This document shows, piece after piece, positions 32,172 to 45,783 of a DNA stretch of 64,000 nucleotides; the stretch's first letter is position 1, and the number at the start of each line of letters is the position of its first letter. Source of the DNA: a phage. Below the pieces are notes generated by a model. It was given only the letters and a program-made list of their open reading frames with translations. It was not told the DNA's origin and searched no databases. A program made the position numbers and the translations under genes. The stretch lies in assembly GCA_033664045.1 (NCBI GenBank), contig GCA_033664045.1_3674.1; one strand, 5' to 3'.

Positions 32172-32480
32172 TACTTGAAAATTCCTGGCATATCAAGTAT
32201 AAGGGGGATTTCTAAAATGGATTTCCTCCTTTTGATATTTCACCGGGCTGGATATTTTAAAATTCTTAGAAAATCAGAAAATGGATCGAAAACTAAAATG
32301 GATTTTTCAGAGTAGGCGCGACAAGCTGAATAACTCATCCTATCGTTTGCACCATATTCCAGGCCACAATTACAGATTTCCAGCACATGCTCCCACCCTT
32401 CTACTAGAACTTCCTCCACTTACCCTTTACCTTCTATGGTAACAATCTAACCACTATCTTGAAGTTGCGGTGCAGCTTTC

Positions 32481-32665
32481 CAGGTACTCGATCTACTTTT
32501 CATTTCAGGGCTTGGATTTTCTGAAAATTTTTCTCGATAAATTTCTCAGTACTCGATCTGTTTTTCGTTTTCTGAATCGGATTTTCTGGAAATCGTTCCG
32601 GATCTCGACCTGAAATTTTTGGGGACGAAATCGATTTTTCGTTTTCAGAAATGGATTTTTAAAAT
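32481..32665. repeat. Iteron-like imperfect direct repeats (three copies of about 45 bp)
   Basis: CAGGTACTCGATCTACTTTTCATTTCAGGGCTTGGATTTTCTGAAAAT (32481), CAGTACTCGATCTGTTTTTCGTTTTCTGAATCGGATTTTCTGGAAAT (32546), partial copy at 32626. Confidence 0.6.
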
Positions 32666-32773
32666 TTGTATATGGAAATATTTTAGGAGGTATTATTTTA
32701 TATAGAATTGTCACGGTAGGTAATTAGCATGCTAACTAAATTTATGAAATGCGAAAAGTTCTCATTTAGAATT

Positions 32774-32792
32774 TTGAATGATAATCATTCTC
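32774..32792. promoter_or_regulatory. Fur-box-like site
   Basis: TTGAATGATAATCATTCTC, about 15/19 to the Fur consensus GATAATGATAATCATTATC. Confidence 0.4.
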
Positions 32793-32801
32793 GTTTGCAG
32801 A

Positions 32802-32830
32802 ATAACGGGCACCCCCGGTGATTGTCTCCC
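32802..32830. repeat. Left arm of a perfect 29-bp inverted repeat
   Basis: ATAACGGGCACCCCCGGTGATTGTCTCCC; exact reverse complement at 41615-41643; a degenerate direct copy at 32937-32965. Confidence 0.8.
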
Positions 32831-32893
32831 GGCCCCTACTGCCCCGGCTTGTTATTATAGTAACACACAGGACAAAGAAAGCAAGAAGTTTTT

Positions 32894-32929
32894 TGCATAA
32901 ATTTTTAGACGATAATGATAATCGTTCTC
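32894..32929 (+). promoter_or_regulatory. Candidate Fur-repressed promoter
   Basis: TTGCAT, 17-bp spacer, GATAAT; the -10 lies inside GATAATGATAATCGTTCTC (32911-32929), 17/19 to the Fur consensus. Confidence 0.45.
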
Positions 32930-33187
32930 ATTTTATGCAGCGCCCATCCCCGGTGGTTGTCTCCCTGTCACCGGTGCCTGCCGTCCTTTCGATATGTATA
33001 TTGTGCCACCTGGCGGGGCCGCTGTCAACACTTTTCAAAAAATTTTTCTAACCTGATGCGCTAACCGCTGCAACCTGGCGGGGCCAGCCTGGCAGGACCT
33101 AACTGACCAGGTAGGAGAGAATGAAGGCTTGCAAACCTGGTGGGCCTATGCTATAGGATAGGTAACAATTGAAGAGGAGGTACAAAA

Positions 33188-33364
33188 ATGAAAGGTAATA
33201 TAATCCCCCTGGAAAATGTAGCTATTAATGACGCTGAGGCTATCGCCCTGGTTGAAAAGGCTATGGCGGGAGCGTTGGAACATAAAGAAGAGTACGAAAA
33301 AATGATGGTTAACCTGGCAGGGGCGGCGGCTGGAGAATTCTACCCAAAAAATAATTTTAACTGA
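33188..33364 (+). CDS. Small hypothetical protein (58 aa)
   Basis: Hand-translated; GAAGAGGAGG site 7 nt before the ATG. Confidence 0.5.
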   Translation: MKGNIIPLENVAINDAEAIALVEKAMAGALEHKEEYEKMMVNLAGAAAGEFYPKNNFN

Positions 33365-33367
33365 TGG

Positions 33368-33396
33368 TTGACAGCTCGTACAGTTATTGTTATTCT
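33368..33396 (+). promoter_or_regulatory. Sigma70-like promoter
   Basis: TTGACA, 17-bp spacer, TATTCT. Confidence 0.45.
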
Positions 33397-33448
33397 TATC
33401 CTCGCAAGGTGAACAACACCACACCAATTAACAGAGAGGATAAAAATC

Positions 33449-33646
33449 ATGAACGCCTACGGAATCAAAGTACGTCGCAACACTCGCCAGGTGGTCACCG
33501 ATCAAATGGTTTGCCGGGTGGATGTAACCATCAACAACGGGCAAGGCCTTTATAAATTCCGTCGCGGTCAGAGCTATACCCGGCAGCAGCTTAATCGTTG
33601 CGCCCTGACAAAAGGTCAGATAAACCACTGGTTTAATAAAAAATAA
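33449..33646 (+). CDS. Small basic protein
   Basis: AGAGAGGA site. Confidence 0.5.
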   Translation: MNAYGIKVRRNTRQVVTDQMVCRVDVTINNGQGLYKFRRGQSYTRQQLNRCALTKGQINHWFNKK

Positions 33647-33649
33647 GTA

Positions 33650-33678
33650 TTGACATATAGTCCGACACCAAATACACT
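33650..33678 (+). promoter_or_regulatory. Sigma70-like promoter
   Basis: TTGACA, 17-bp spacer, TACACT. Confidence 0.5.
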
Positions 33679-33710
33679 AAAAGCACAAAAGACACTAAGA
33701 GGATAAAATC

Positions 33711-34109
33711 ATGAAAACCACTACCTTTAATTTTGATAATGCGGACTTTTCTTTTTCTGATGTCAAGAACTGCCGCCGTGATCGTGGATTTTACAAGGCC
33801 TATAATCTGGTGGGCCTGGACGATGACAATAATTTGCACGAAGTAGCTGAGATCCGGTATTATGCCGCCGCCAGCGGGAACACTCACTACTGCGTTTTTT
33901 GGATACACGACAACAAGAACAATAAGTACGGCTATACTGGAGGCAAGGCGAGCGGTCACGGTTATGATAAAGCCAACGCAGCACTTCAGAGCGCATTAAA
34001 TGCTATGGGGATCACTGCCGACGGCTGGATCTACGAAGAAGAGTTTTTGTCGGCACTTGCTGACCGCCTGGGCTATAAAAAGCACATTGTAACATGCGCC
34101 CACGAATAA
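33711..34109 (+). CDS. Hypothetical protein
   Basis: AAGAGGA site. Confidence 0.55.
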   Translation: MKTTTFNFDNADFSFSDVKNCRRDRGFYKAYNLVGLDDDNNLHEVAEIRYYAAASGNTHYCVFWIHDNKNNKYGYTGGKASGHGYDKANAALQSALNAMGITADGWIYEEEFLSALADRLGYKKHIVTCAHE

Positions 34110-34115
34110 AAATTG

Positions 34116-34143
34116 TTGACACGCTGCAAAATTCAAGTAAACT
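34116..34143 (+). promoter_or_regulatory. Sigma70-like promoter
   Basis: TTGACA, 16-bp spacer, TAAACT. Confidence 0.45.
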
Positions 34144-34191
34144 GGGCACAAAAGGCGGGAATGTTTCCCGCCAACATAAAGGAAAAAGATC

Positions 34192-34596
34192 ATGAATAAG
34201 AACGTACGCCGCATCATGAACGAACTGGCAAACGATGAAAAAATTATTGATATGCATTTGGTCAACATTTGCCGCCGTTGTGTAACATACAACAACCGCG
34301 CCGCAAAAGCGCGTGAGATGAACGCAAAAGGCACCTTAAAGCCATTCCAGGTGGTGGTAAAGGCCATTAAAGATGTAACTAATACGGCAAACCAGGTACA
34401 GGGGAACACCAACGAGAGTACCAATATTGATCCGTCTTACGTAATGAAACGGATCCGGACTTGCAAGAATAAAGAGCAGGTGTATAACGTCATAGATTGG
34501 CTGGACTCCCTGGGCGATGTGGTTTACAATAGGTTTTCTGCAGCTATTGAGATTCAGTTAGACAGGTTGGACGGGAAAGTACTAAAAACTTACTGA
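34192..34596 (+). CDS. Hypothetical protein
   Basis: AAAGGAAAAAG site. Confidence 0.55.
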   Translation: MNKNVRRIMNELANDEKIIDMHLVNICRRCVTYNNRAAKAREMNAKGTLKPFQVVVKAIKDVTNTANQVQGNTNESTNIDPSYVMKRIRTCKNKEQVYNVIDWLDSLGDVVYNRFSAAIEIQLDRLDGKVLKTY

Positions 34597-34643
34597 GTTT
34601 ATTTTTAGATGGCCTTGACTTCAGGGCCATCAATAAAGTAAAC
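34597..34643. repeat. Conserved intergenic element, copy 1
   Basis: ATTTATTTTTAGATGGCCTTGACTTCAGGGCCATCAATAAAGTAAAC with stem ATGGCC/GGCCAT; begins right after the stop codon. Confidence 0.75.
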
Positions 34644-34676
34644 TAGTCTCAACTAAGCGAAAAAGGGGGCTTTAAG

Positions 34677-34796
34677 ATGAGCACTACACGCCAATACACA
34701 AAGGTAACTATTATCGTTTGCGTTGTCGGTTACATCCTGGCGCAAATGTTAATGAGTAGCGCCAACAGTTTTGCAAAATTTTTCTTAAATTTTTAA
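34677..34796 (+). CDS. Small membrane peptide (39 aa)
   Basis: Hand-translated; AAAGGGGG site; hydrophobic core VTIIVCVVGYILAQMLM. Confidence 0.4.
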   Translation: MSTTRQYTKVTIIVCVVGYILAQMLMSSANSFAKFFLNF

Positions 34797-34825
34797 TTGA
34801 CAAGCTAACCCAAATCGGTATACTT
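34797..34825 (+). promoter_or_regulatory. Sigma70-like promoter
   Basis: TTGACA, 16-bp spacer, TATACT. Confidence 0.55.
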
Positions 34826-34875
34826 AAACACGTAAACGGGAAAACTTCCCAGAACACACAAAAGGAGAAAACACC

Positions 34876-35217
34876 ATGACTACTATGACCGCCACAGAAA
34901 AAGCTATGCAGATCGCCGCGCTGAAAAAACAGATCGCAGACCTTGAGAACAAGATCGATAACTTTGAAATCGACGAGGACAAGTACGACGAAAACTATGA
35001 CGAATGGTTAGACGAGATCTACGGCGAAATTATGATCGGAAACATTTCTTTTCTTCCGTCGCGTATCCTCAAGGAGCTGGATCCTATCGCTTACCGCTGC
35101 GGATTTAGCGACTACATCGACAGCTTGGATATTGAGGACGATGAAGAGTACCAAGAATTACAGACAGAGCTCGAAGAAGTGAAAGAAGAGCTTGCAGAAC
35201 TGGAAGAAAACGAGTAA
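34876..35217 (+). CDS. Highly acidic protein (DNA-mimic candidate)
   Basis: D/E-rich throughout with a coiled-coil-like N-terminus; AAGGAGAAAA site. Confidence 0.55.
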   Translation: MTTMTATEKAMQIAALKKQIADLENKIDNFEIDEDKYDENYDEWLDEIYGEIMIGNISFLPSRILKELDPIAYRCGFSDYIDSLDIEDDEEYQELQTELEEVKEELAELEENE

Positions 35218-35265
35218 AATTTATTTTTAGATGGCCTTGACTCCAGGGCCATCAATAAAGTAAAC
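35218..35265. repeat. Conserved intergenic element, copy 2
   Basis: AAATTTATTTTTAGATGGCCTTGACTCCAGGGCCATCAATAAAGTAAAC. Confidence 0.75.
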
Positions 35266-35307
35266 TTTATACTGTTAACACTGAACTAATGCATAGGAGT
35301 TAAAACC

Positions 35308-35553
35308 ATGGCAGCACTAATCACCAAATATTATGCCCCTACCAACACCAAAAGCGCCCGTATCATGGTAAAAGGCTTCGGACGTAAAAAGGTTTACACC
35401 TGGGATTATGCCTTAGACACAGAAGACAACTACACCAACGCGATGACCGATTTTATTAATGATCTGAACACGCGGATCTTGACAAATTATCAAATTACCG
35501 ATATTGCCTATATAGGGGAAGGCGGGATCTGTTTTGTCGGTATCGTCAAATAG
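35308..35553 (+). CDS. Hypothetical protein
   Basis: ATAGGAG site. Confidence 0.5.
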   Translation: MAALITKYYAPTNTKSARIMVKGFGRKKVYTWDYALDTEDNYTNAMTDFINDLNTRILTNYQITDIAYIGEGGICFVGIVK

Positions 35554-35630
35554 GCTGTTTTTTCGGTGGTCCTGGTAGCAGGGCCATCTATAAAGATAGT
35601 TTATCAACACAATGAAAGGAGAAAGTACAC

Positions 35631-35984
35631 ATGATCAGCGGGGCTAGTTTTATTATTGGCGCTATTGCTACGGCTTTAATTGTAAACAAGATCCAGGATA
35701 AAAAAGAAAGAGGAAGTACCGCCCTTGCAGAATATCCATTTTGGACATTCAACGATAACGAAGATTATATTATAAAGTATAAAAATAAAGAAGGCGACCA
35801 AGTAACACCGCGACCGATCCCGGCTTACAAAATGCAGGAAACACTATACCGCCTGGAGGCGGGGGGCGCAAAAATTGTGGACTTTTGGGGATACGACCAC
35901 ACAGATCAGGAAGTTATAAAGCGCCGTATCCGGGCTATTCAGGCCAATATTGAAGTTAGCAAGGGTGGAATATATGAAAATTAA
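35631..35984 (+). CDS. Membrane-anchored protein
   Basis: N-terminal helix ISGASFIIGAIATALIV; AAAGGAGAAA site. Confidence 0.5.
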   Translation: MISGASFIIGAIATALIVNKIQDKKERGSTALAEYPFWTFNDNEDYIIKYKNKEGDQVTPRPIPAYKMQETLYRLEAGGAKIVDFWGYDHTDQEVIKRRIRAIQANIEVSKGGIYEN

Positions 35985-36171
35985 TTTCGAGAAAATTGTA
36001 AAGCGCCCTCATGATTCCGAAGAGCTGCCAGAACGCCGACAGCGTAACAATAAACTGAATAAGCCAAAAAGATTTGGGAAGATCTGGCGGAATCATTATG
36101 ATCGTAAATTGCCCGGCCTACTTTTGGAACGTGAACGACAGGCAGAACGATACCGCCATAAAGACAAATAA
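35974..36171 (+). CDS. Small basic protein
   Basis: Overlaps the stop of the previous gene; R/K-rich; terminator follows. Confidence 0.4.
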   Translation: MKINFEKIVKRPHDSEELPERRQRNNKLNKPKRFGKIWRNHYDRKLPGLLLERERQAERYRHKDK

Positions 36172-36179
36172 CAACCAAC

Positions 36180-36206
36180 GCCCCGCCATTGTGCGGGGCT
36201 TTTTAT
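36180..36206 (+). terminator. Rho-independent terminator
   Basis: GCCCCGC-CATTGT-GCGGGGC followed by TTTTTATTT. Confidence 0.65.
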
Positions 36207-36330
36207 TTCTATCCTACGAATAGCGCCCCTGGTTGGCCCTGTAAGCGCCAAAAAGGCCCCCACCTATGCAATCGCCCCCCTTTAACCTGAAAACATCGCC
36301 CAGGGCCGTTTTATGGCGTTAAAAATATCA

Positions 36331-36358
36331 TTGACATCGTCAACAGGTTAGCTATACT
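36331..36358 (+). promoter_or_regulatory. Sigma70-like promoter
   Basis: TTGACA, 16-bp spacer, TATACT. Confidence 0.55.
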
Positions 36359-36390
36359 AACCACATCAAAGAGAGAAAGGAGTAAACGCC

Positions 36391-36651
36391 ATGCGTAAAT
36401 TAAAAAATTTTGATAAAGTTGATGTTATCCTGAATAATTTTTACTACTGCAACAATAAGGCTATTTGGTGGCGTGATAGTTCCACCGATAAAGTCAAGGC
36501 GCGCTTTCTTCAGGGGCACTGGCAAGGCCGCCCAGTGATTAAAATCATGGGGCAATTGGTAGCGTTTAAAAATTGCCGCCGTGTTGATGACGTTGAGGAG
36601 ATTTTAAACATTTTGCGCCACAATAATTTAAAAAATAGTGTTGACAAGTAA
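36391..36651 (+). CDS. Hypothetical protein
   Basis: AAAGGAG site. Confidence 0.5.
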   Translation: MRKLKNFDKVDVILNNFYYCNNKAIWWRDSSTDKVKARFLQGHWQGRPVIKIMGQLVAFKNCRRVDDVEEILNILRHNNLKNSVDK

Positions 36652-36668
36652 ATCTCAATAAGTATAAT
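36641..36668 (+). promoter_or_regulatory. Sigma70 consensus promoter
   Basis: TTGACA, 16-bp spacer, TATAAT. Confidence 0.6.
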
Positions 36669-36725
36669 TAAACACACAGGCGGGAAAACTTCCCGCCACT
36701 AACAAAGAAAACAGGAGAAAATATC

Positions 36726-37349
36726 ATGACCACCGTTAACATTACCACAGGTTACAATTTATCTTTCGACGTGCTGACCGATGAACAAAAAGAAAAAGCT
36801 ATTGAAATGGTCCGCGAAAGAGAAGAACACAGCGGGGATAACTTTTTTGCAGAAAGTGTAATTGAAGACTATAAAGAACATATCTTTCCAGAGTATGGCC
36901 TTGAAGATACCAAGGTACATTGGTCCGGATTTTGGTGCCAGGGCGACGGCGCATCAATCAGTGCGGAAAACGTGGATTTAGAAAAATTCTTGCGTAAAGT
37001 AAAGGCCCTTACCAAGTTCCGATCAATTCGTCACTTGTTCGGCACAATGCACGATGGCGAACTATCCGCAAGCGTTGAGCGTGATCCATATAGCCGCTAT
37101 AGTCACGAAAACACTGTAAGCGGGTACATCGATACTACATGGCTAGACCTGACCGCCAAACAAGAAAATAAAGTGGAAGATCTGGAAGAGCTGATCACCG
37201 AGACGGTACGGGAGCTATCCCGCAAGGTTTACGTAGACCTGGAGCAAGCTTATCTTGAACAATTTACTACCGAAAACCTGATCGGCCTTATCGAGGCCAA
37301 TGATTGGCGGTTTGATGTGGATGAATATGGCGAGATGACTTTTTCATAA
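36726..37349 (+). CDS. Hypothetical protein (207 aa)
   Basis: ACAGGAGAAAA site; largest gene of the small-gene block. Confidence 0.55.
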   Translation: MTTVNITTGYNLSFDVLTDEQKEKAIEMVREREEHSGDNFFAESVIEDYKEHIFPEYGLEDTKVHWSGFWCQGDGASISAENVDLEKFLRKVKALTKFRSIRHLFGTMHDGELSASVERDPYSRYSHENTVSGYIDTTWLDLTAKQENKVEDLEELITETVRELSRKVYVDLEQAYLEQFTTENLIGLIEANDWRFDVDEYGEMTFS

Positions 37350-37438
37350 ATAAAGTGTTGCAATAACCTAAAAACCTGCTATATTAAAACTCAAGGGGCA
37401 AGACGTTTGCCCCCACACAAAACAAAGAGGAAAACATC

Positions 37439-37819
37439 ATGAAAAACACCACTAAAGCTATTGACACCGTTATGTTTAACCTGGTTACCTTTCGCGAGGA
37501 TATGAAAGATCTTCCGCGTGAAACAGTGTGCGACCATATCGAAAACTATCGCAAACTAATCAAAGAGTTGCCTTTAAAACGTGATCAGTATGCGGCTAAC
37601 GCCATGCTTAATGCCATGATCAAAAAGATGATCCAGTGTGATTTAACTCTGGCCTATGACTATGCGGGTGGTCGTTTTGCAGTATACAATCAGCCCGTGC
37701 CTGGTATGAGCACCACCGAAGAATTGCACGCGCTCAATCTAAAACAAGACGTGTGGGATAGTATGCCTCGCGTGGTGGTATGGGTAGAAAGCGGAAAGAT
37801 TTACGGCGATAATTTTTAA
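37439..37819 (+). CDS. Hypothetical protein
   Basis: AAGAGGAAAA site. Confidence 0.5.
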   Translation: MKNTTKAIDTVMFNLVTFREDMKDLPRETVCDHIENYRKLIKELPLKRDQYAANAMLNAMIKKMIQCDLTLAYDYAGGRFAVYNQPVPGMSTTEELHALNLKQDVWDSMPRVVVWVESGKIYGDNF

Positions 37820-37883
37820 TCAGGTAACAGGCGGCATATTTGCCGCCTTATTGTTAATCAGAACTGTAAAAGAGGTACATAGA

Positions 37884-38255
37884 ATGGAATTTATTATTTT
37901 GGCTGTACTGGTTGCCTTGTTTAACGCCTGGATCGCTGGCAAGATGGGAAGATCCGCCTTTTTATGGTTTATTATATCTATTTTCCTGGGGGTGGTTGCA
38001 ACTATTGTATTGGTTATCCTTGCAATTGTTGACAAGGGGAATAATAGAAAGGGTAAAGTATTTTCAGACCTGTACGACGCTCAAACGTTTGTCAACGCCT
38101 ATTATAGTGATCTCCCAGTCTCCCTACGTTGCAGCCTTGCACAACAGGTTTTCGATGAAGCTAAAACCAGAGATCACGCCCATGAGATTTGTTTAACTGA
38201 GGCGGATCGCTTATTTGAGAGGAATAGAAAATATGTGGGCCAGCCGTTTAAATAA
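37884..38255 (+). CDS. Membrane protein (two transmembrane helices)
   Basis: MEFIILAVLVALFNAWIA and FLWFIISIFLGVVATIVLVILAIV; AGAGG site. Confidence 0.5.
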   Translation: MEFIILAVLVALFNAWIAGKMGRSAFLWFIISIFLGVVATIVLVILAIVDKGNNRKGKVFSDLYDAQTFVNAYYSDLPVSLRCSLAQQVFDEAKTRDHAHEICLTEADRLFERNRKYVGQPFK

Positions 38256-38454
38256 TACCACGTTAATTAATCCGCTTAGTGAAGATTTGAGGCCAGCCGC
38301 CTGGCGGGATGGATTCAATAATGAAAGCTTTATTTTCAGGCCTGATCTTAAGGAATTTTATAACAATGGATCGGACAACGACAGAGATAATTTTTCTTGT
38401 AATGTGCGTGGTGATAATACTCCTGGGGGCCATTGCAAACCACGTAACTGCTAA
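38233..38454 (+). CDS. Hypothetical protein (uncertain)
   Basis: Track ORF trimmed to ATG 38233; overlaps the neighbour; competes with another ORF in a different frame. Confidence 0.3.
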   Translation: MWASRLNNTTLINPLSEDLRPAAWRDGFNNESFIFRPDLKEFYNNGSDNDRDNFSCNVRGDNTPGGHCKPRNC

Positions 38455-38474
38455 CAGGGGGAAGGGGGGAGACG

Positions 38475-38594
38475 ATGACAACCAAGGATAAGCCCCGCAC
38501 CGATAAGGCGCGCCGTGCTATGGTATGGCTTGAGATCATCGCCCTTGAAATATTGTTAGGTGTAGGGATGTATTTTATCGCTGTAAGTAACTGA
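38475..38594 (+). CDS. Small membrane peptide (39 aa)
   Basis: Hand-translated; GGGGGGAG site; hydrophobic WLEIIALEILLGVGMYFIAV; terminator follows. Confidence 0.4.
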   Translation: MTTKDKPRTDKARRAMVWLEIIALEILLGVGMYFIAVSN

Positions 38595-38598
38595 TAAC

Positions 38599-38640
38599 GG
38601 CCCCCGATCCCTGGGGGCCTAACTTTTTAAAATTTTTTTC
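38599..38640 (+). terminator. Rho-independent terminator
   Basis: GGCCCCC-GATCCCT-GGGGGCC followed by TAACTTTTTAAAATTTTTTT. Confidence 0.6.
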
Positions 38641-38650
38641 TCCTTGGGTG

Positions 38651-38678
38651 TTGCAATCCGATCCAGAATATGGATAAT
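38651..38678 (+). promoter_or_regulatory. Sigma70-like promoter (conserved AATATGGATAATA core)
   Basis: TTGCAA, 16-bp spacer, GATAAT; nearly identical -10 region at 39482-39497. Confidence 0.5.
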
Positions 38679-38737
38679 AACAATCAACGGGGAGACACTC
38701 CCCACCACACAGACAAAATTCCAAAAGGAGAAACAAA

Positions 38738-38938
38738 ATGAGCAACAATATCCGCGTTATTAACTTCAAAAAAGAAGAAAAAATTGCTGTGCTGGTTGAT
38801 GGTCAAGAAATCTTCAAGGGCGACTATGAAGATCATCAAACGGCGATTAGTATCACTCGCGTGATCGGTTACCATAATTTCTACCCCCAAGGCGCTGAGG
38901 CAGCAGTTAAACGAATCAAAGAGATTGTAGGCCTGTAA
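38738..38938 (+). CDS. Hypothetical protein
   Basis: AAAGGAGAAA site. Confidence 0.5.
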   Translation: MSNNIRVINFKKEEKIAVLVDGQEIFKGDYEDHQTAISITRVIGYHNFYPQGAEAAVKRIKEIVGL

Positions 38939-38986
38939 AATTTATTTTTAGATGGCCTTTACTTCAGGGCCATCAATAAAGTAAAT
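38938..38986. repeat. Conserved intergenic element, copy 3
   Basis: AAATTTATTTTTAGATGGCCTTTACTTCAGGGCCATCAATAAAGTAAAT. Confidence 0.75.
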
Positions 38987-39029
38987 TTAAACCCTGTTAA
39001 AATAATCAGTGCAAAAAGGAGTAATGATC

Positions 39030-39329
39030 ATGTTTATACCCGCCAATAATCTTTATTTCTTTGATGGTCAGATCGTAGACGGTGTGGAAGTGGAGATCAC
39101 TGGGTGCCCTGGTGGTCAGGCTATGACTTTTCGGAATAATGCCTTTGATGATTCTCATATCGTTATGAGAATGGAAGTTACAAAGCTGGACGACAAGAAA
39201 ACGCTTATTGACTATTCCGTGAAAGATCATCCAGACTACCACATGATCTATGGTGATTTGTGTATTGTTGACCGTGACAAGGTGGGCGGCATTGTGATCG
39301 CTATTGTGAACGATGTTTTCTCTGAATAA
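39030..39329 (+). CDS. Hypothetical protein
   Basis: AAAAGGAG site; ATG 39030. Confidence 0.5.
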   Translation: MFIPANNLYFFDGQIVDGVEVEITGCPGGQAMTFRNNAFDDSHIVMRMEVTKLDDKKTLIDYSVKDHPDYHMIYGDLCIVDRDKVGGIVIAIVNDVFSE

Positions 39330-39469
39330 TTCCGGCAAATGATGCAAAATAAGGCCCCTAGCAGGGCCTGCAGCGATATAATCACATAAAGGCTATGCGG
39401 TTGCATGGCCTTTATTATTTTAGCGTTACAGCGGCCCCCAAGGCGCTTAAAAAATTTTTAAAGAAGTAC

Positions 39470-39497
39470 TTGCATCAAGCCCTACAATATGGATAAT
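39470..39497 (+). promoter_or_regulatory. Sigma70-like promoter (conserved AATATGGATAATA core)
   Basis: TTGCAT, 16-bp spacer, GATAAT. Confidence 0.5.
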
Positions 39498-39553
39498 AGG
39501 ACGTGTCAGGGGGGCGGCCCCAATCATTAACCGGATAGATAGGAGTTAAAACC

Positions 39554-39838
39554 ATGGCTATTGTTACTGCTGGCGATGTAGTAGAAATGGAAGCAAAATA
39601 CTTAAAAGCGGGTATGCATATCCTACGGAATGATCAAGAGTTATTATTAACGATGGTCGACTATAATCCCGGCCAGGATTATCCAAGCATCGACTACTTT
39701 TTTGAGTATGTTGATGAAGAATTAAAAGAGGATGAGGCCTATTGCGGTGAGTTCTGCAATTTCTTTTGTCCTGATGAGGTTGTAAAGGTTATCTATCAAC
39801 CTGGCGTAGCTTTCCCTCTGCACGCTATCAATAAATAA
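39554..39838 (+). CDS. Hypothetical protein
   Basis: TAGGAG site. Confidence 0.5.
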   Translation: MAIVTAGDVVEMEAKYLKAGMHILRNDQELLLTMVDYNPGQDYPSIDYFFEYVDEELKEDEAYCGEFCNFFCPDEVVKVIYQPGVAFPLHAINK

Positions 39839-39903
39839 ACCTGGCGGGGCCGAAAAGGCCCCTACAGCATAAAATCATAAAAAATAAAGAGAGGCAAATC
39901 ATC

Positions 39904-40137
39904 ATGATGGAACAAATTAAACGCGCTGAGGCTATTAATGGCAATGTGATCTATTTTGTCAGCAAAAACGAAAAAGGCGTACCATATGCGGCGGTAATAG
40001 TACAGCCTGACGGAGATTATTGGTTTACTGTATACGGATCTTATTCTTTTGGGCGTCCAGTGCATGATAAAATTTTGAAAGTAGCGAACCCCACCGGGAA
40101 GAATATCACGGCAGAAAAATTTTTTGAAAAGTGTTGA
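39904..40137 (+). CDS. Hypothetical protein
   Basis: AAAGAGAGG site. Confidence 0.5.
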   Translation: MMEQIKRAEAINGNVIYFVSKNEKGVPYAAVIVQPDGDYWFTVYGSYSFGRPVHDKILKVANPTGKNITAEKFFEKC

Positions 40138-40164
40138 CATGACCATATAAAACTGTAGTATATA
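40134..40164 (+). promoter_or_regulatory. Sigma70-like promoter
   Basis: TTGACA then an AGTATATAA -10 region. Confidence 0.45.
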
Positions 40165-40212
40165 AATCAAAGGGGGCAACAAGCCCCACCAACCACAAAG
40201 AGGATAAAAATC

Positions 40213-40392
40213 ATGGCTATTATTGCAAAAACTGAGATCGTAGGCTTAGATTCTATTCTCCTCGCATATGAGGAAGCTATAGAAATGTATGTGGTTTCCT
40301 ATGGTGAGTATATCCGTGAATATAAATCTATTGATCTGGCTTTTGAATGTTATATTCGCCAGGTAAATAAAGCATATGATGATTATCGTTAA
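40213..40392 (+). CDS. Small hypothetical protein (59 aa)
   Basis: Hand-translated; AAGAGGATAAAAA site. Confidence 0.45.
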   Translation: MAIIAKTEIVGLDSILLAYEEAIEMYVVSYGEYIREYKSIDLAFECYIRQVNKAYDDYR

Positions 40393-40488
40393 AATAGTTT
40401 GACAACAAACAACCATCTAACAAAGCATAATACATAAGGTGGTAGAATGATCTGATCCGCCACCTGGAACAAAGAAGAGGTAAACACC

Positions 40489-40593
40489 ATGAAACAGAAA
40501 TTAATTGATGCAGTGATCTTGGTTATTGCCCTAGGTATTGGCCTGATTGCAACCATGGCTAATGTGATCTTGTCTTCCAACGGTATCGGGTGA
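40489..40593 (+). CDS. Small membrane peptide (34 aa)
   Basis: Hand-translated; AAGAAGAGG site; AVILVIALGIGLIATMANVIL. Confidence 0.4.
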   Translation: MKQKLIDAVILVIALGIGLIATMANVILSSNGIG

Positions 40594-40602
40594 GGTTGAC
40601 AA

Positions 40603-40818
40603 ATGATCACTAACAAAACAGGCAAAACGGAATTTTTACGCAACTTGCAGATCGGCAAGCCTGAGATCTGGTATTGCACTAAAACACCACGTGACGAAAT
40701 GAAAGACTTCACCGCCACGCTGCAACGGGTAAAGATATCTATCACGCAGAAAAAGGCCTTACTAGTGGTGGAAGGGGAGATCCCCCAAACCGTTGTTATA
40801 GTTGAGCGTACAGCATAG
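40603..40818 (+). CDS. Hypothetical protein
   Basis: Track ORF. Confidence 0.45.
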   Translation: MITNKTGKTEFLRNLQIGKPEIWYCTKTPRDEMKDFTATLQRVKISITQKKALLVVEGEIPQTVVIVERTA

Positions 40819-40907
40819 TTTAATCTATACCGTACGCCCCATTAACTAACAAAGCATAAACAGGCGGCGGTAACCGCCTTAAACGCAGCAGAAAGAGGAT
40901 AGACAAC

Positions 40908-41192
40908 ATGAAAAAGATGATCGCAGTGGTTGCCCTGGTTATTGGACTTAATGCGCCTGTAATGGCTAAAGAGCTGGCAAAAGAGGTAGATCTAACTGAT
41001 ATCCATGCCGTCAATCAAATCGGTGTTACTTATCGGTTATGCCTTGCCGCAAAAACTTTCCAGGATGGCACAACAGAGTACTACGGATTCGAAGGCATCC
41101 GGTGCGGTGAGCTTGCTCGCGACCTTAAAGAAGATCCAGACCTGGAGGATCTGCCGATAACCGTAAACGGGAAAACTTACGTGAACCGTTAA
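40908..41192 (+). CDS. Secreted small protein (signal peptide)
   Basis: MKKMIAVVALVIGLNAPVMA signal-like N-terminus; AAAGAGGA site. Confidence 0.5.
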   Translation: MKKMIAVVALVIGLNAPVMAKELAKEVDLTDIHAVNQIGVTYRLCLAAKTFQDGTTEYYGFEGIRCGELARDLKEDPDLEDLPITVNGKTYVNR

Positions 41193-41194
41193 CC

Positions 41195-41329
41195 ATGAGA
41201 AAGATAATTATCACCATGGGGATCGTGGCGGGATCGCTGGCGCTCTTTCTCCTTATGGTTAGGTATGTGCTGATCAGTATTGTCCTGACAGTCAGTGATC
41301 TATTGGAAACGGTTGGCACCTTGTTTTAA
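41195..41329 (+). CDS. Small membrane peptide (44 aa)
   Basis: Hand-translated; starts 3 nt after the previous stop; two hydrophobic segments. Confidence 0.4.
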   Translation: MRKIIITMGIVAGSLALFLLMVRYVLISIVLTVSDLLETVGTLF

Positions 41330-41342
41330 AGAGCGATAGAAA

Positions 41343-41534
41343 ATGAATATCGAACAAGTTAGAAAGGTATTAACGGTACTGCGTTATCATAATCATAGAA
41401 AGGTCATAGACGATCCTGATTATGTTGATTCAAGCCTGGAAGGGGATACACTGCAAGCCATAAGCAACATGCAAGAATTGCTCAAGCGCATGACAGAGAA
41501 AAACCGACCGGACTACATAGGCGAAAAAATATAA
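41343..41534 (+). CDS. Hypothetical protein
   Basis: Track ORF. Confidence 0.45.
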   Translation: MNIEQVRKVLTVLRYHNHRKVIDDPDYVDSSLEGDTLQAISNMQELLKRMTEKNRPDYIGEKI

Positions 41535-41550
41535 TCCTTATAAACTACAA

Positions 41551-41580
41551 AACAGGGCTTGCAATGGTCCTGTTTTTTGT
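41551..41580 (+). terminator. Rho-independent terminator
   Basis: AACAGG-GCTTGCAATGGT-CCTGTT followed by TTTTTG. Confidence 0.6.
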
Positions 41581-41614
41581 TATACTTGTTTCACGGGTGG
41601 CACCTGGCGACGGG

Positions 41615-41643
41615 GGGAGACAATCACCGGGGGTGCCCGTTAT
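41615..41643. repeat. Right arm of the perfect 29-bp inverted repeat
   Basis: GGGAGACAATCACCGGGGGTGCCCGTTAT is the reverse complement of 32802-32830. Confidence 0.8.
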
Positions 41644-41663
41644 ATAAAAAACTATAAAAACCG

Positions 41664-41692
41664 TTGACATCTGCCGGGTGGTGGGGTAGCAT
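41664..41692 (+). promoter_or_regulatory. Sigma70-like promoter
   Basis: TTGACA, 17-bp spacer, TAGCAT. Confidence 0.55.
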
Positions 41693-41746
41693 TTACCTTG
41701 AAGGGGCAAAAGTGCCCACACAACAACCAGAAGAGAGGAAAACACT

Positions 41747-42019
41747 GTGTCAAGCTGGATTAATCAAGAAGTAGAATCACGTTTTAATGCTATTTGGGAT
41801 CTCATCGAAAAAGAGGACGGAACATCAAGCCCCTACCTCAACAATTTGGAATTCCATTTTGTGGAAGCGATGAACGCAGAACATGATCACGAAGGTGGCG
41901 CGGATGATTTCGCTAAAGGTTATGGCTTTAACAATGCCAACGAAATGATCGAGTCGGTCGTACTCCAGGCTGAGGAAGATTATCAATTAAAAACGCTTGA
42001 ATTCTGCCGCCATAAGTAA
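41747..42019 (+). CDS. Hypothetical protein
   Basis: GTG start; AGAGAGGAAAA site. Confidence 0.5.
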   Translation: MSSWINQEVESRFNAIWDLIEKEDGTSSPYLNNLEFHFVEAMNAEHDHEGGADDFAKGYGFNNANEMIESVVLQAEEDYQLKTLEFCRHK

Positions 42020-42080
42020 TAAGATAATGACACGGGCCAAAAGGCCCACCAATCAGAACCGCACAAAGAGGAAAAACATC

Positions 42081-42344
42081 ATGAAACGTCTTGACCAGCT
42101 CAAATTAGTTCAATATATGGCTTATCGTGTTCTTGAAGTCCAAAAAGGTAGCAAAAAAGAGGTTTGCGAGAAAGCATATAAGATCTTTACCCGTAAAAAA
42201 GATGATTGGATGTTACGCCAGACCAAAAAGGCTGACATCTTGGGGTACCTGGAAGAAGAGATCCGGCTTGAAGAACAAGAAGAGATCCGCCGCAGTGAGG
42301 CAGATTATCAGGCAGCTTGGGAAAACTGGATGAGCAACAAATAA
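42081..42344 (+). CDS. Hypothetical protein
   Basis: AAGAGGAAAAA site; ATG 42081. Confidence 0.5.
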   Translation: MKRLDQLKLVQYMAYRVLEVQKGSKKEVCEKAYKIFTRKKDDWMLRQTKKADILGYLEEEIRLEEQEEIRRSEADYQAAWENWMSNK

Positions 42345-42411
42345 TACAACAAGTTACATGGTCAGGGGGCAATAAAGCCCCTTTATCGCATAAAAATTAT
42401 GCTATCCTTGG

Positions 42412-42440
42412 TTGACAGGGATCGGCAGTTTTGCTATATT
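42412..42440 (+). promoter_or_regulatory. Sigma70-like promoter
   Basis: TTGACA, 17-bp spacer, TATATT. Confidence 0.6.
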
Positions 42441-42489
42441 CTTTTTTGAAGGGAAGTTGTAAGAAAATTAACTAAGAGGTAAAAACACC

Positions 42490-42909
42490 ATGAACATTAA
42501 ATCTAATAATCCGGCATATAGCTTTGATAACGCTTTTTGTCACGGTCCGGCGGCGAAAGGATTCGAAATCGATGGTAAACTAATTATTGTCAATGTTGAC
42601 GGGGAAGAGGTTGCAGTATATCCGGTGGCAGACGTTAAAAGCCGTTTGCAATGCCGCATGGATGTTACCGCCTATCAGCTTGATCCGGTCCGCATAGTTG
42701 CCCTGGTCCTGGAAGAAGAAATTAAAGCCATGCACCATAGCAACAGGTTTATTGGTGACGCACAGGATAATATGAAGGTATGCCGCCATAAAGTTAATGA
42801 AGTGCTTAAAGAATATGGCTTTAAAGATCTGATGATCAAACGTGAGGAAAAATTCCGTTATCGTAACGACCTGGCAAATCGGATTTTTGAAATATACGAA
42901 TCATTATAA
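42490..42909 (+). CDS. Hypothetical protein
   Basis: AAGAGGTAAAAA site; terminator follows. Confidence 0.55.
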   Translation: MNIKSNNPAYSFDNAFCHGPAAKGFEIDGKLIIVNVDGEEVAVYPVADVKSRLQCRMDVTAYQLDPVRIVALVLEEEIKAMHHSNRFIGDAQDNMKVCRHKVNEVLKEYGFKDLMIKREEKFRYRNDLANRIFEIYESL

Positions 42910-42929
42910 TTTATTAACTGAATTATCAA

Positions 42930-42954
42930 GGGGCTTAAGGCCCCTTTCTTTTTG
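42930..42954 (+). terminator. Rho-independent terminator ending the rightward small-gene block
   Basis: GGGGC-TTAAG-GCCCC followed by TTTCTTTTTG. Confidence 0.65.
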
Positions 42955-43570
42955 TTTGCTCTTTTCCTACCACAAACGGCCCAGCCTGGCAAGTGGAATA
43001 ATTGACTAGCCATCAATCCCGCACACTGTACAAATATACATATAAAATAGATATTGCATAACCTTTCATTGTGTGGTAGCAGGGCCATTTTTACACGTTT
43101 TTCCTTCCAAAATTGCACGTAATGCAGCTATTGCACAAAATTTAACCTGATGCACATCTTCAGTATACTGTCAACAATTAAAAACCCTTATAAGTCATAC
43201 ACTTACACAAACCAAAAAGCGTGTCCTACGTGAAAAATCGGGTGTAACTATAGCCGACAGATCTCAGAATCCACGTACGATCACCATTCTATAGCCTGCA
43301 AAGTATTTATTCCAACCACAGAATAACGGAATAGTCAATACCTGTATAAAATAATTATTCGTATAAACTGCATAACATAAACCCGCCCAGGTGTCAACAT
43401 TTTTCGTAAACAGTCCGAAATTGTCACGGTGAGTTATCATAAATAGAGAAATATTTAGTCGTCTAATGTTTACTGTACATTACTATACTGACTGGAATCA
43501 TTAGATGACTAAGAGAAAGATAAGAAATAATTAACAATGTAAGTATTTTACCTGCAACAATAAGGCAACT

Positions 43571-43803
43571 ATGCAAACGAATGTCATGGCGCGACGGAGT
43601 CGCGACATAATATAAAAGCAGTAACCATCACCCCCGTGATAGTTTGTCTGCAAACTATTAATCAGATCATAGTTGCCTTGTATTTAGTTAATCATGACAT
43701 AACAAGCAAGGCAACTATAGATCTTCTAATAGTTGCCCTGCTTTTATATTATGTCATCTATTGTAAATCAGTTAATTGTTTTCATGCAAACGAATGTCAT
43801 GGC
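43571..43803. repeat. 20-bp perfect direct repeat pair and ATAGTTGCC repeats
   Basis: ATGCAAACGAATGTCATGGC at 43571-43590 and 43784-43803; ATAGTTGCC / GGCAACTAT at 43564, 43669, 43710, 43729; palindrome AGTTTGTCTGCAAACT at 43641. Confidence 0.7.
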
Positions 43804-43830
43804 TTATCATTTTTGAGTAAATAGTTTGTT

Positions 43831-44030
43831 TGTAAACAATCTATACGTAAACAGTTAACTATGTAAACTATTAGATATGTAAACTATTGGTTATGTAGAC
43901 TATCAGGAATGTAAACAGTAAAGCGAGTGAATAGTGAGAGCGTAAACAGTCAGGCATGTCAATTATGTTTAATGTGCCCAGTATGTCACTATTGTGTCTA
44001 AAGTGTCATAGTATGTCACAGTATGTCAGA
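43831..44030. repeat. Arrays of short direct repeats
   Basis: Seven copies of TGTAAAC-like motif at about 15-bp spacing (43831-43950), then four to five copies of GTATGTCA (43955-44030). Confidence 0.7.
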
Positions 44031-45662: not shown

Positions 45663-45783
45663 GAAATCTCCTCTGGAAATGAGAGTGTGAACAGGGTTTC
45701 ATACGTTCCAGTGCACAGGAATTATGCACGTTTGCCTCTTCAGGCCATGCTTTAGCATGAGAAACCTGTGTGGGCTCGGTGCT

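What the first reader, a model, noticed from the sequence alone, without database searches (positions are those of the whole stretch)
33188..42909. Block of about 28 small, individually promoted genes with no recognisable function
Nearly every gene here (34 to 207 aa) has its own TTGACA/TATAAT-like promoter and a strong AGGAG-type ribosome-binding site, and several are followed by terminators. This is the architecture of phage early host-takeover genes. None has a recognisable catalytic motif. The set includes one strongly acidic protein, several one- or two-helix membrane peptides and a secreted small protein. This is the most likely place for undescribed host-takeover or anti-defence functions.
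Basis: partly seen in the sequence, partly recalled or inferred. Interest (0 to 1): 0.65.

Follow-up and report, generated by a model that had tools for sequence, protein, structure and literature searches.

The report
Swappable small-gene cassettes in rV5-like phage
This is the known block of small genes of unknown function in an rV5-like E. coli phage. Many of its genes sit behind a reusable promoter, hairpin and ribosome-site cassette, and closely related phages gain and lose genes at those cassettes. The design was already described in T4-type phages, so the block is useful but largely ordinary.

Summary
The window is a Vequintavirus (rV5-like coliphage). The block corresponds to rV5 ORF197-164, part of the "88 mainly small ORFs" noted in 2013.

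Confirmed:
- 28 plus-strand ORFs of 34-207 aa; about 24-25 show a clear coding signature.
- 26 of 28 have good Shine-Dalgarno sites.
- One strongly acidic protein, several membrane peptides and one signal-peptide protein.
- No recognisable function. The only Pfam hit is a T7 gene 1.1 homologue.

Overstated:
- Only 13 of 28 genes have a promoter matching at least 9 of 12 consensus positions (16-17 at 8 of 12).
- Promoter density is similar elsewhere in the window.
- Most GC hairpins are not terminators. They lack T-tracts and lie between the -10 box and the ribosome-binding site.

What sets the block apart is a composite cassette: AT-rich tract, sigma70 promoter, GC stem-loop, CA-rich linker, SD. 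There are 7 strict copies against 0.12 expected. This matches the PeSL cassettes of T4-type hyperplastic regions. Ten close relatives differ by whole genes at six or more slots, and several junctions lie inside the cassette sequences.

Early expression and a host-takeover or anti-defence role remain inferences. Two confident structure models matched nothing informative, and Vequintavirinae are reported to be very sensitive to restriction-modification systems.

The parts
33188..33364 (+). g1, 58 aa, acidic; doubtful gene
   Evidence: Strong SD and phrog_21957. The ORF is intact in 0 of 9 relatives, shows no third-position bias, and is deleted in A51.2 and phiWec193.
33449..33646 (+). g2, 65 aa, very basic (pI 11)
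   Evidence: Promoter 33368-33396, 10/12 with extended -10.
33711..34109 (+). g3, 132 aa (rV5 ORF195)
   Evidence: phrog_7028. Substitutions 6/2/34 by codon position. Promoter 33650-33678, 10/12.
34192..34596 (+). g4, 134 aa (rV5 ORF194), with a full cassette: promoter 34116-34143 and leader hairpin 34154-34172
34677..34796 (+). g5, 39-aa single-TM peptide, behind repeat copy D1 at 34592-34645
34876..35217 (+). g6, 113 aa, strongly acidic (pI 4.05, net -26). Helical hairpin plus a conserved core (YDEWLDEIYG...LKELDPIAYRCGFSDY)
   Evidence: Model pLDDT 90.7. Only generic coiled-coil matches. Promoter 34797-34824 (11/12) and hairpin 34838-34850.
35308..35553 (+). g7, 81 aa, flanked by D1 repeat copies at 35214-35267 and 35549-35602
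35631..35984 (+). g8, 117 aa, N-terminal TM anchor
35974..36171 (+). g9, 65 aa, basic; homologue of T7 gene 1.1. Overlaps the end of g8 and is followed by terminator 36180-36199
   Evidence: Pfam PF08200, E 2.6e-11, 44.2 bits against a cutoff of 21. Terminator.
36391..36651 (+). g10, 86 aa. Promoter 36331-36358 (11/12), whose -35 box is an indel junction
36726..37349 (+). g11, 207 aa, acidic (net -23). Invariant SGFWxQGDG and H127/E128. Confident model with no informative structural match
   Evidence: Consensus promoter 36641-36668 (12/12) and hairpin 36679-36697. Relatives in jumbo phages.
37439..37819 (+). g12, 126 aa. Promoter 37358-37385 and hairpin 37395-37413
   Evidence: Homologues in phi92-like and phAPEC8-like phages sit behind the same type of cassette.
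37884..38255 (+). g13, 123 aa, two TM helices
   Evidence: The 'putative holin' label in one relative's record is unsupported; the rV5 paper proposed gp129 instead.
38233..38454 (+). g14, 73 aa; doubtful gene
   Evidence: phrog_12060. No third-position bias in this frame or the alternative frame 38309-38491; intact in 5 of 10 relatives.
38475..38594 (+). g15, 39-aa TM peptide, followed by terminator 38599-38619
38738..38938 (+). g16, 66 aa. Promoter 38651-38678 and hairpin 38689-38703
39024..39329 (+). g17, 101 aa, behind D1 copy 38935-38988. Followed by a deletion scar (about 39337-39350) and terminator 39386-39415
39554..39838 (+). g18, 94 aa, acidic
   Evidence: Weak promoter 39470-39497 (8/12) and G/C-run hairpin 39507-39521.
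39904..40137 (+). g19, 77 aa. Leader hairpin 39846-39862 (GAAAA loop), no good sigma70 match upstream
40213..40392 (+). g20, 59 aa. Promoter 40134-40161 and hairpin 40173-40187
40489..40593 (+). g21, 34-aa TM peptide. The slot in front of it holds 0, 1 or 2 extra genes in relatives
40603..40818 (+). g22, 71 aa, starts 9 nt after g21
40908..41192 (+). g23, 94 aa, signal-peptide-like N-terminus (MKKMIAVVALVIGLNAPVMA/KE). Leader hairpin 40862-40879
41195..41329 (+). g24, 44-aa TM peptide, no SD, starts 2 nt after g23; weakly supported
   Evidence: Present in 4 of 10 relatives, no third-position bias.
41343..41534 (+). g25, 63 aa, followed by composite terminator/promoter 41549-41586
41747..42019 (+). 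g26, 90 aa, acidic (rV5 ORF167, annotated as an RB49 homologue). GTG start here, ATG in all 10 relatives. Promoter 41664-41692 and hairpin 41704-41717
42081..42344 (+). g27, 87 aa. Leader hairpin 42034-42047. The slot in front of it holds an extra 219-nt gene in rV5, Mangalyan and EmilHeitz
42490..42909 (+). g28, 139 aa (rV5 ORF164). Promoter 42412-42440 (11/12, extended -10), upstream stem-loop 42364-42383, terminator 42928-42946
34592..34645 (+). D1 repeat family, 54 nt, 4 copies (also 35214-35267, 35549-35602, 38935-38988). T-rich tract, then palindrome GATGGCC-N10-GGCCATC enclosing the -35 box TTGACT, then -10 box TAAACT
36679..36697 (+). Representative leader stem-loop, GGCGGGAAAACTTCCCGCC, 10 nt after the -10 box, no T-tract, followed by a CA-rich linker and the SD. 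Others at 34154, 34838, 37395, 37829, 38689, 39507, 39846, 40173, 40440, 40862, 41704 and 42034

Best explanation
The block is the distal, hyperplastic (gene-content-variable) accessory region of the host-RNA-polymerase-transcribed, non-structural arm of a Vequintavirus. It corresponds to rV5 ORF197-164.

It is not one operon, and it is not 28 independent units. It is about 16-17 short units of 1-3 genes. Many of them are built from the same regulatory cassette: an AT-rich UP-like tract, a near-consensus sigma70 promoter, a GC-rich stem-loop, a CA-rich linker and a strong SD. The stem-loop usually starts 8-13 nt after the -10 box. In four copies it encloses the -35 box, and in a few it lies upstream of the promoter.

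SHOWN. The cassette is strongly over-represented and specific to this block. Its stem-loop potential is kept when its sequence changes. Close relatives differ by whole genes at six or more slots, and several junctions lie inside the cassette sequences (the -35 hexamer, the leader, and the SD plus start codon).

INFERRED. The cassettes give each small gene strong, host-polymerase-dependent, and therefore early, expression. The stem-loop acts at the RNA level as a 5' stabiliser and/or an attenuator or insulator. The repeated cassette sequences act as short homologies for gene gain, loss and exchange, as proposed for the PeSL cassettes of T4-type phages. The cargo proteins are small and non-enzymatic. 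They are probably modulators of host, defence or competing-phage functions, but none can be assigned a function.
For: - Identity with rV5 and relatives.
- Promoter enrichment is strand-specific: 11 against 1.8 +/- 1.4.
- UP-like tracts: AT 0.77 against a background of 0.57; none of 20,000 random draws reached 0.77.
- Strict composite of promoter plus downstream GC hairpin: 7 in the block against 0.12 +/- 0.33 in shuffles; 1 in the 24 kb upstream and 1 in the 18 kb minus-strand arm.
- Geometry: -10 box, 8-13 nt, hairpin, CA-rich linker, SD.
- Repeated cassette families: D1 with 4 copies, and the g6 and g11 cassettes 74% identical over 66 nt.
- Hairpins are retained in nearly all distinct variants, with stem replacement and centre inversions.
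- Gene-sized indels at the slots g9|g10, g17|g18, g20|g21, g25|g26 and g26|g27, plus loss of g1. Junctions fall in TTGACA(T), in the leader, and in the SD-ATGAAA repeat. The g10 promoter has three allelic states bounded by TTGACA.
- The same cassette design occurs in a phi92-like phage.
- It matches the PeSL definition.
- Coding signature 249/156/825.
- The flanking genes on the same strand are rII and replication genes.
- The rV5 paper's virion proteomics does not list gp164-197.
Against: - There is no transcription-start, timing or half-life data for any Vequintavirus, so early expression and the RNA-level role of the hairpin are inferences.
- Eleven genes have no recognisable promoter of their own.
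- Surviving gene-sized indels would be intergenic anyway. One junction (g17|g18) shows no cassette homology and looks like a plain deletion.
- In RB49 and phi1 the stem-loop mostly lies between or over the promoter hexamers and was shown to terminate. Here it mostly lies in the transcribed leader and has no T-tract.
- Relatives are only 5-8% diverged, so evidence for covariation is thin. Centre inversions keep any palindrome intact without RNA-level selection.
- No cargo protein has an assigned function.
Confidence: 0.7

Rival explanations
1. One reading: a dedicated early host-takeover or anti-defence module in which most of the 28 products are effectors against host functions or immunity.
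For: Small non-virion proteins behind host-type promoters with strong SD sites. A T7 early-gene homologue. Acidic and membrane-active candidates. Gene content varies as expected for genes in an arms race. This reading is compatible with the best explanation; it concerns the cargo, not the architecture.
Against: No product matches any known anti-defence or takeover family or fold. Vequintavirinae are reported to be exceptionally RM-sensitive. Timing is not measured. Three ORFs lack a coding signature.
Confidence: 0.35
2. The GC hairpins are ordinary intrinsic terminators that isolate each gene, as the first reader assumed and as the PeSL authors proposed for RB49.
For: Five or six hairpins do have T-tracts and follow genes. 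A PeSL stem-loop terminated transcription in a reporter assay. Read on the minus strand, many leader hairpins are followed by weak T-rich runs and were flagged as minus-strand terminators. They could therefore block antisense read-through from the convergent arm.
Against: About 13 hairpins lie downstream of the promoter they accompany and have no T-tract on the coding strand. An efficient terminator there would abort the gene's own transcript.
Confidence: 0.2
3. The leader stem-loops are binding sites for a specific protein, either on RNA (a boxB/nut-like antitermination or translational operator site) or on DNA (a recombinase or regulator). The D1 palindrome over the -35 box would be an operator for shutting off early promoters.
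For: Recurrent sequence families: GGCGGGAA...TTCCCGCC in g4, g11 and phi92-like phages; four copies of the D1 palindrome. A-rich loops, including GAAAA at 39846-39862. Terminators inside the block would make antitermination useful.
Against: Stem and loop sequences differ widely between cassettes and between relatives, while only the hairpin potential is kept. There is no boxA-like partner and no candidate binding protein. The same layout occurs in an unrelated mycobacteriophage, which suggests a generic structural role.
Confidence: 0.12
4. The promoters are largely redundant. The block is expressed mainly by read-through from the upstream replication-gene promoters, at middle rather than immediate-early times.
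For: The block is the 3' end of a 36-kb same-strand unit. Eleven genes lack their own promoter. Promoter density upstream is similar.
Against: There are at least five internal terminators. Consensus-grade promoters with UP-like tracts are conserved in relatives.
Confidence: 0.15

Closest known systems
PeSL (promoter-early stem-loop) cassettes in the hyperplastic regions of T4-type phages RB49/phi1, PST/T4 and nt-1/KVP40 (Arbiol et al. 2010, PMC2839356; Comeau et al. 2014, PMC4122927)
   Same: Intergenic composite of an AT-rich tract containing the upstream stop codon, a sigma70-consensus promoter, a G-run/C-run stem-loop, an SD and a start codon. Concentrated among small ORFan genes. Close relatives differ by insertion, deletion or replacement of whole ORFans at these elements. 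The rV5 record annotates several small ORFs in and just upstream of the block as RB49 homologues.
   Different: A different phage lineage (Vequintavirinae). I found no description of PeSLs outside T4-like phages. Here the commonest stem-loop position is 8-13 nt downstream of the -10 box, in the predicted transcript. In phi1 and RB49 it is most often between the hexamers or over the -10 box. Promoter and terminator activity and mini-circle formation are untested here.
rV5 ORF164-197 and the '88 mainly small ORFs' region (Kropinski et al. 2013, PMC3606486)
   Same: Orthologous block at 92.9% nucleotide identity with the same gene order. The small ORFs, the adjacent ORF-free gap and scattered sigma70 promoters were already described.
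   Different: The rV5 annotation lists only 6 promoters and 2 terminators here. One 'terminator' feature spans 285 nt, almost the whole of ORF196. It does not describe the composite cassettes, the D1 repeat family or the gene flux.
Host-takeover or early small-gene modules of other lytic phages: SPO1 terminal-redundancy module, T5 pre-early genes, T7 class I genes, T4 early ORFs (my own knowledge, except the T5 pre-early description)
   Same: Arrays of small genes with strong host-type promoters and strong ribosome-binding sites. The products are mostly non-enzymatic and include some membrane-active or toxic proteins. One product here (g9) belongs to the T7 gene 1.1 family.
   Different: In those phages early timing and host shut-off roles were shown experimentally, and the modules sit at the DNA end that enters the cell first. 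rV5 is circularly permuted. This block lies at the distal end of its transcription arm, and nothing about it has been tested.
5'-terminal stem-loop mRNA stabilisers in E. coli, such as the ompA 5' UTR, which protect against 5'-end-dependent RNase E decay (my own knowledge)
   Same: A stable GC hairpin predicted to begin within a few nucleotides of the transcript's 5' end, upstream of an unstructured linker and the SD.
   Different: The transcription start sites are only predicted from the -10 position. No half-life data exist.

Membership tests
PeSL regulatory cassettes (Arbiol 2010 / Comeau 2014) | sigma70-consensus early promoter in the intergenic space | tested here: met
   11 plus-strand sites of at least 10/12 against 1.8 +/- 1.4 in shuffles, 0 on the minus strand. 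13 genes have a site of at least 9/12 directly upstream.
PeSL regulatory cassettes (Arbiol 2010 / Comeau 2014) | [quoted passage not shown] | tested here: met
   Mean AT 0.77 in the 22 nt upstream of 16 promoters, against 0.57 background; none of 20,000 random draws reached 0.77.
PeSL regulatory cassettes (Arbiol 2010 / Comeau 2014) | Stable stem-loop, often polyG...polyC, at one of five positions relative to the promoter | tested here: met
   About 13 leader hairpins downstream of the -10 box, 4 D1 copies enclosing the -35 box, and 3 upstream of the -35 box. 7 strict composites against 0.12 expected. The positional preference differs from phi1 and RB49.
PeSL regulatory cassettes (Arbiol 2010 / Comeau 2014) | Preferential location in hyperplastic regions among small ORFans | tested here: met
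   7 composites in this 9.8-kb block, against 1 in the 24 kb upstream and 1 in the 18 kb minus-strand arm. The block varies at six or more gene slots among 10 relatives.
PeSL regulatory cassettes (Arbiol 2010 / Comeau 2014) | Indel and replacement junctions between close relatives lie in the cassettes | tested here: inconclusive
   3-4 of 5 gene-sized indels have junctions in the -35 hexamer, the leader or the SD-ATG repeats, and the g10 promoter has 3 allelic states. One junction shows no homology. The sample is small, and surviving indels are expected to be intergenic anyway.
PeSL regulatory cassettes (Arbiol 2010 / Comeau 2014) | Demonstrated promoter and terminator activity; excised mini-circles | not testable with these tools
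   Needs reporter fusions and inverse PCR on infected cells or virions.
Pfam PF08200 Phage_1_1 (T7 gene 1.1 protein), for g9 only | Profile match above Pfam's gathering score | tested here: met
   44.2 bits against a cutoff of 21, E 2.6e-11, residues 2-42 against profile positions 1-33 of 40. One relative's record carries the same label. As far as I know, the family's function is unknown.
Phage early host-takeover module (SPO1, T5 or T7 type) | Transcription in the first minutes of infection by unmodified host RNA polymerase | not testable with these tools
   Only promoter-sequence inference. No Vequintavirus transcriptome found.
Phage early host-takeover module (SPO1, T5 or T7 type) | Products shut off or redirect host functions, or are toxic when expressed alone | not testable with these tools
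   No homology to known shut-off proteins. Needs expression screens.
DNA-mimic anti-restriction proteins (Ocr/ArdA type), for acidic g6 | Sequence or fold similarity to a known DNA mimic | tested here: not met
Intrinsic (Rho-independent) terminators | GC-rich hairpin followed directly by a T-tract on the transcribed strand, downstream of a gene | tested here: not met
   Met by 5-6 sites (36180, 38599, 39386, 41549, 42928, weak 37829). Not met by the roughly 13 leader hairpins, which lack a T-tract and follow promoters.

The most novel reading that the evidence does not exclude
The stem-loop cassettes could be more than passive regulatory boilerplate. They could be a functional exchange platform: DNA-level hairpins or cruciforms that actively promote recombination, making this block a plug-and-play gene-cassette array shared by Vequintavirinae and the phi92-like phages. 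Four of 22 hairpins show centre inversions among 11 genomes (three exact, plus the g12 leader with a 1-nt change), and the g10 promoter shows nested deletions bounded by TTGACA. Separately, some cargo could be new host-takeover or anti-defence effectors. One example is g11, which has a confident model with no structural match and an invariant SGFWxQGDG/HE motif. Another is the widespread acidic g6 family.
Probability: 0.2. Interest if true: 0.6.

Novelty: new member of a known kind. Interest (0 to 1): 0.3.

Why it matters
rV5-like phages are among the E. coli phages most often isolated and are candidates for therapy. Much of their genome consists of small ORFs of unknown function.

If this block is built from PeSL-type cassettes, there are three consequences:
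- The modular-shuffling mechanism proposed for T4-type phages extends to a second, unrelated myovirus lineage.
- The cassette boundaries show where genes can be removed or inserted without disturbing their neighbours.
- Screens can be prioritised towards the variable slots, g6, g9 and g11.

None of this identifies a new function, so the practical value is as a map for experiments.

Tried and rejected
- **Sequence families.** Pfam, PHROGs and NCBIfam on all or most products gave only 'unknown function' families plus Phage_1_1 for g9. The extra genes that relatives carry in the variable slots gave DUF7249 and unknown PHROGs.
- **Solved structures by sequence and profile.** Searches for g6, g11 and g28 found nothing below E 0.1.
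- **g6 fold.** AlphaFold model at pLDDT 90.7. Only generic coiled coils matched.
- **Genomic context of distant g11 homologues.** Arrays of small unknown phage genes next to DnaB and a PD-(D/E)XK nuclease. No functional hint.
- **Rfam and tRNA scans of the window.** Nothing found.
- **Small-RNA idea.** The G-rich inverted repeat after the orphan promoter (41590-41665) has fold z-score -1.29, not significant. Dropped.
- **rV5 'late-like' motif TGGTAAAATA.** Not enriched.
- **Fixed genome end next to the block, as a DNA-entry-order argument.** Rejected because rV5 is circularly permuted.
- **'Putative holin' label on the g13 homologue.** No holin family hit, and the rV5 authors proposed gp129.
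- **Viral-contig scan for the composite pattern.** Single hits are at chance level. Only the clustered hits were used.
- **Literature on timing and anti-defence in this group.** No relevant data.

Full report
**Source and context.** The region is 93-95% identical to Vequintavirus genomes. The best hit is Escherichia phage Mangalyan at 95.0%; rV5 is at 92.9%. It is collinear with rV5 ORF197 to ORF164, nearly all annotated 'hypothetical protein'. The rV5 paper places these genes at the distal end of a proposed transcription unit, '10-1-238-164'. That unit also carries rIIB, helicases, a methyltransferase, primase/helicase, DNA polymerase and endonuclease VII. [quoted passage not shown] The genome is circularly permuted. 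In the window, the plus-strand unit runs from about 7 kb to 42.95 kb. It converges on a 2.7-kb ORF-free gap with a minus-strand unit. The window has no tRNA genes and no Rfam matches.

**The genes.** I count 28 plus-strand genes of 34-207 aa. All match PHROG families of unknown function at E < 1e-22. Against ten relatives, variable sites fall 249/156/825 at codon positions 1/2/3, so the set as a whole is under purifying selection. There are three exceptions. g1 is intact in none of 9 relatives and is deleted in two. g14 and the alternative frame at 38309-38491 show no codon-position bias. g24 is present in 4 of 10 relatives and shows no bias. Twenty-six starts have an SD of -5.6 kcal/mol or better (mean -7.1, against -3.1 for all ATGs in the block). 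The SD context is stereotyped: ACAAAGAGGAAAAACAYCATGA. g6 has pI 4.05 and net charge -26, and g11 is also acidic. g5, g15, g21 and g24 are single-TM peptides. g13 has two TM helices, g8 has an N-terminal anchor, and g23 has a signal-peptide-like N-terminus.

**Promoters.** Sites matching at least 10/12 are strongly enriched and strand-specific: 11 on the plus strand, 0 on the minus strand, 1.8 +/- 1.4 in 300 shuffles. Nine of the 11 are intergenic. They carry UP-like AT tracts: AT 0.77 against 0.57, with none of 20,000 random draws reaching 0.77. But only 13 of 28 genes have a promoter of at least 9/12 directly upstream, and 16-17 at 8/12. Density in the block (1.13/kb) is close to that of the replication-gene part of the same strand (0.83/kb) and of the minus-strand arm (0.66/kb). 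'Nearly every gene individually promoted' is therefore overstated, and frequent promoters do not distinguish this block.

**Hairpins.** Five or six intergenic hairpins carry T-tracts and follow genes: 36180, 38599, 39386, 41549, 42928, and a weak one at 37829. About 13 other GC-rich hairpins have no T-tract. Each sits 8-13 nt after a -10 hexamer and 19-41 nt before the start codon, followed by a CA-rich linker and the SD. If transcription starts about 7 nt after the -10 box (an assumption), each hairpin begins within a few nucleotides of the 5' end of the transcript. A strict search for a promoter of at least 9/12 plus a perfect GC hairpin 5-16 nt downstream finds 7 in the block, against 0.12 +/- 0.33 in shuffles. 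It finds only 1 in the 24 kb upstream and 1 in the 18-kb minus-strand arm. A second cassette type is a 54-nt repeat with four copies (D1). In it, a palindrome GATGGCC-N10-GGCCATC encloses the -35 box TTGACT, behind a T-rich tract. A third type has the stem-loop upstream of the -35 box (38599, 42364) or fused with it as a terminator/promoter (41549-41586). The g6 and g11 cassettes are 74% identical over 66 nt.

**Comparison with relatives.** Alignment with ten Vequintavirus genomes shows whole-gene differences at these slots:
- g9|g10
- g17|g18 (the window lacks a 351-nt gene and keeps a scar)
- g20|g21 (0, 1 or 2 extra genes)
- g25|g26
- g26|g27
- g1 itself

The junctions lie in three kinds of cassette sequence: the -35 hexamer TTGACA(T) at g10, the hairpin leader at g27 (19-nt overlap), and the SD-ATGAAA segment at g21 (32-nt overlap). 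The g25|g26 variant brings its own stem-loop/promoter. The g17|g18 junction shows no cassette homology. The g10 promoter exists in three states, all bounded by TTGACA: a single box, TTGACA-23 nt-TTGACA, and TTGACA-gene-TTGACA. The extra genes are also of unknown function.

**Hairpin conservation.** Hairpin potential is kept in nearly all distinct leader variants, even where the inner stem and loop are replaced. In three of 22 hairpins the centre is exactly inverted in some relatives, and the g12 leader in L003 is a fourth case with a 1-nt change. Inversions preserve any palindrome, so this is evidence that the hairpins are dynamic at the DNA level. It is not proof of selection at the RNA level.

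**The same design elsewhere.** The same layout precedes the g12 homologue and its neighbours in the phi92-like phage PaulScherrer, which belongs to another subfamily. Three copies occur in a 149.5-kb viral contig. Unrelated copies recur in Mycobacterium phage Thonko, which suggests a convergent, generic design.

**What it resembles.** The elements match the published definition of PeSL cassettes in T4-type hyperplastic regions. That definition comprises an AT-rich tract with the upstream stop codon, a sigma70 promoter, a polyG/polyC stem-loop at one of five positions, and an SD with a start codon. The cassettes are concentrated among ORFans, and recombination between them accounts for indels between close relatives. 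The differences are the phage lineage and the preferred stem-loop position, which here is in the leader. I found no description of PeSLs outside T4-like phages. Promoter and terminator activity and mini-circle formation cannot be tested here.

**Timing.** No transcriptome for this phage group was found. The rV5 'late-like' motif is not enriched. Early expression is therefore inferred from the host-type promoters and the company of rII and replication genes.

**Verdict.** The block is a known set of hypothetical small genes. The new point is that it is organised by PeSL-type cassettes, which mark the points where genes are exchanged. That makes it a new member of a known kind of system, and no function has been assigned to any of its products.

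Noticed in passing
window 42950-45700: The ORF-free, low-GC (0.38) gap where the two transcription arms converge is packed with short repeats. There is a 16-nt tandem TATGTAAACTATTAGA (3.6 copies at 43860-43916, with more at 43846, 43941 and 44246). There are palindromes ATAGTTTGTCTGCAAACTAT (43639, 43821, 44189) and ATAGTTGCC in both orientations. There is also an 18-nt perfect inverted repeat (43604/43738) and an 18-nt tandem at 44326-44360. It looks like an iteron or origin, or a regulator-binding array. Several relatives' GenBank records start inside it.
   Followed up: partly
window 32200-33100: A second stretch without credible ORFs lies just upstream of the block. It contains a repeat of about 65 nt in three copies at 32474-32660.
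   Followed up: no
window 36180-36199, 36679-36697, 37395-37413, 40862-40879 against L010, L011, L003 and others: In some relatives the centre of a hairpin is replaced by its exact reverse complement. Examples are CATTGT>ACAATG, AAC>GTT, and CGGTAA>TTACCG (the last in 7 relatives). This is a signature of palindrome-mediated inversion at the DNA level.
   Followed up: partly
window 36331-36337 against L005 and most relatives: The g10 promoter has three allelic states bounded by TTGACA repeats: one -35 box; two boxes 23 nt apart; or two boxes with a 282-nt gene cassette between them.
   Followed up: yes
window 38233-38491: Two overlapping ORFs in different frames (38233-38454 and 38309-38491) are both open, but neither shows a third-position substitution bias. 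Different GenBank records annotate different frames or nothing here.
   Followed up: partly
window 41747: g26 starts with GTG in this phage, but all ten relatives have ATG at the same position.
   Followed up: no
GenBank records MG0656xx: About 22-23 records named 'Campylobacter phage' with host Campylobacter jejuni are 93-95% identical to E. coli rV5-like phages over this block. The host labels look doubtful, or the records may be contaminated.
   Followed up: no
L035 (Mycobacterium phage Thonko) 3652-7214: There are four near-identical cassettes: TTGACA-N17-TAACTT, about 10 nt, the hairpin GGCGGGAA..CCCGCC, an SD, then ATG. Each stands in front of a small gene. This is the same layout in an unrelated actinophage.
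   Followed up: partly
window 41559-41640: A promoter-like site (TTGCAA-16-TATACT) is embedded in the terminator after g25, with no gene directly behind it. A G-rich inverted repeat follows. Its fold is not better than shuffles (z -1.29).
   Followed up: yes
L001 (rV5 record) 3173-3457: The rV5 GenBank record has a 'Rho-independent terminator' feature spanning 285 nt that coincides with almost the whole ORF196 CDS. This is probably a coordinate error in the record.
   Followed up: no
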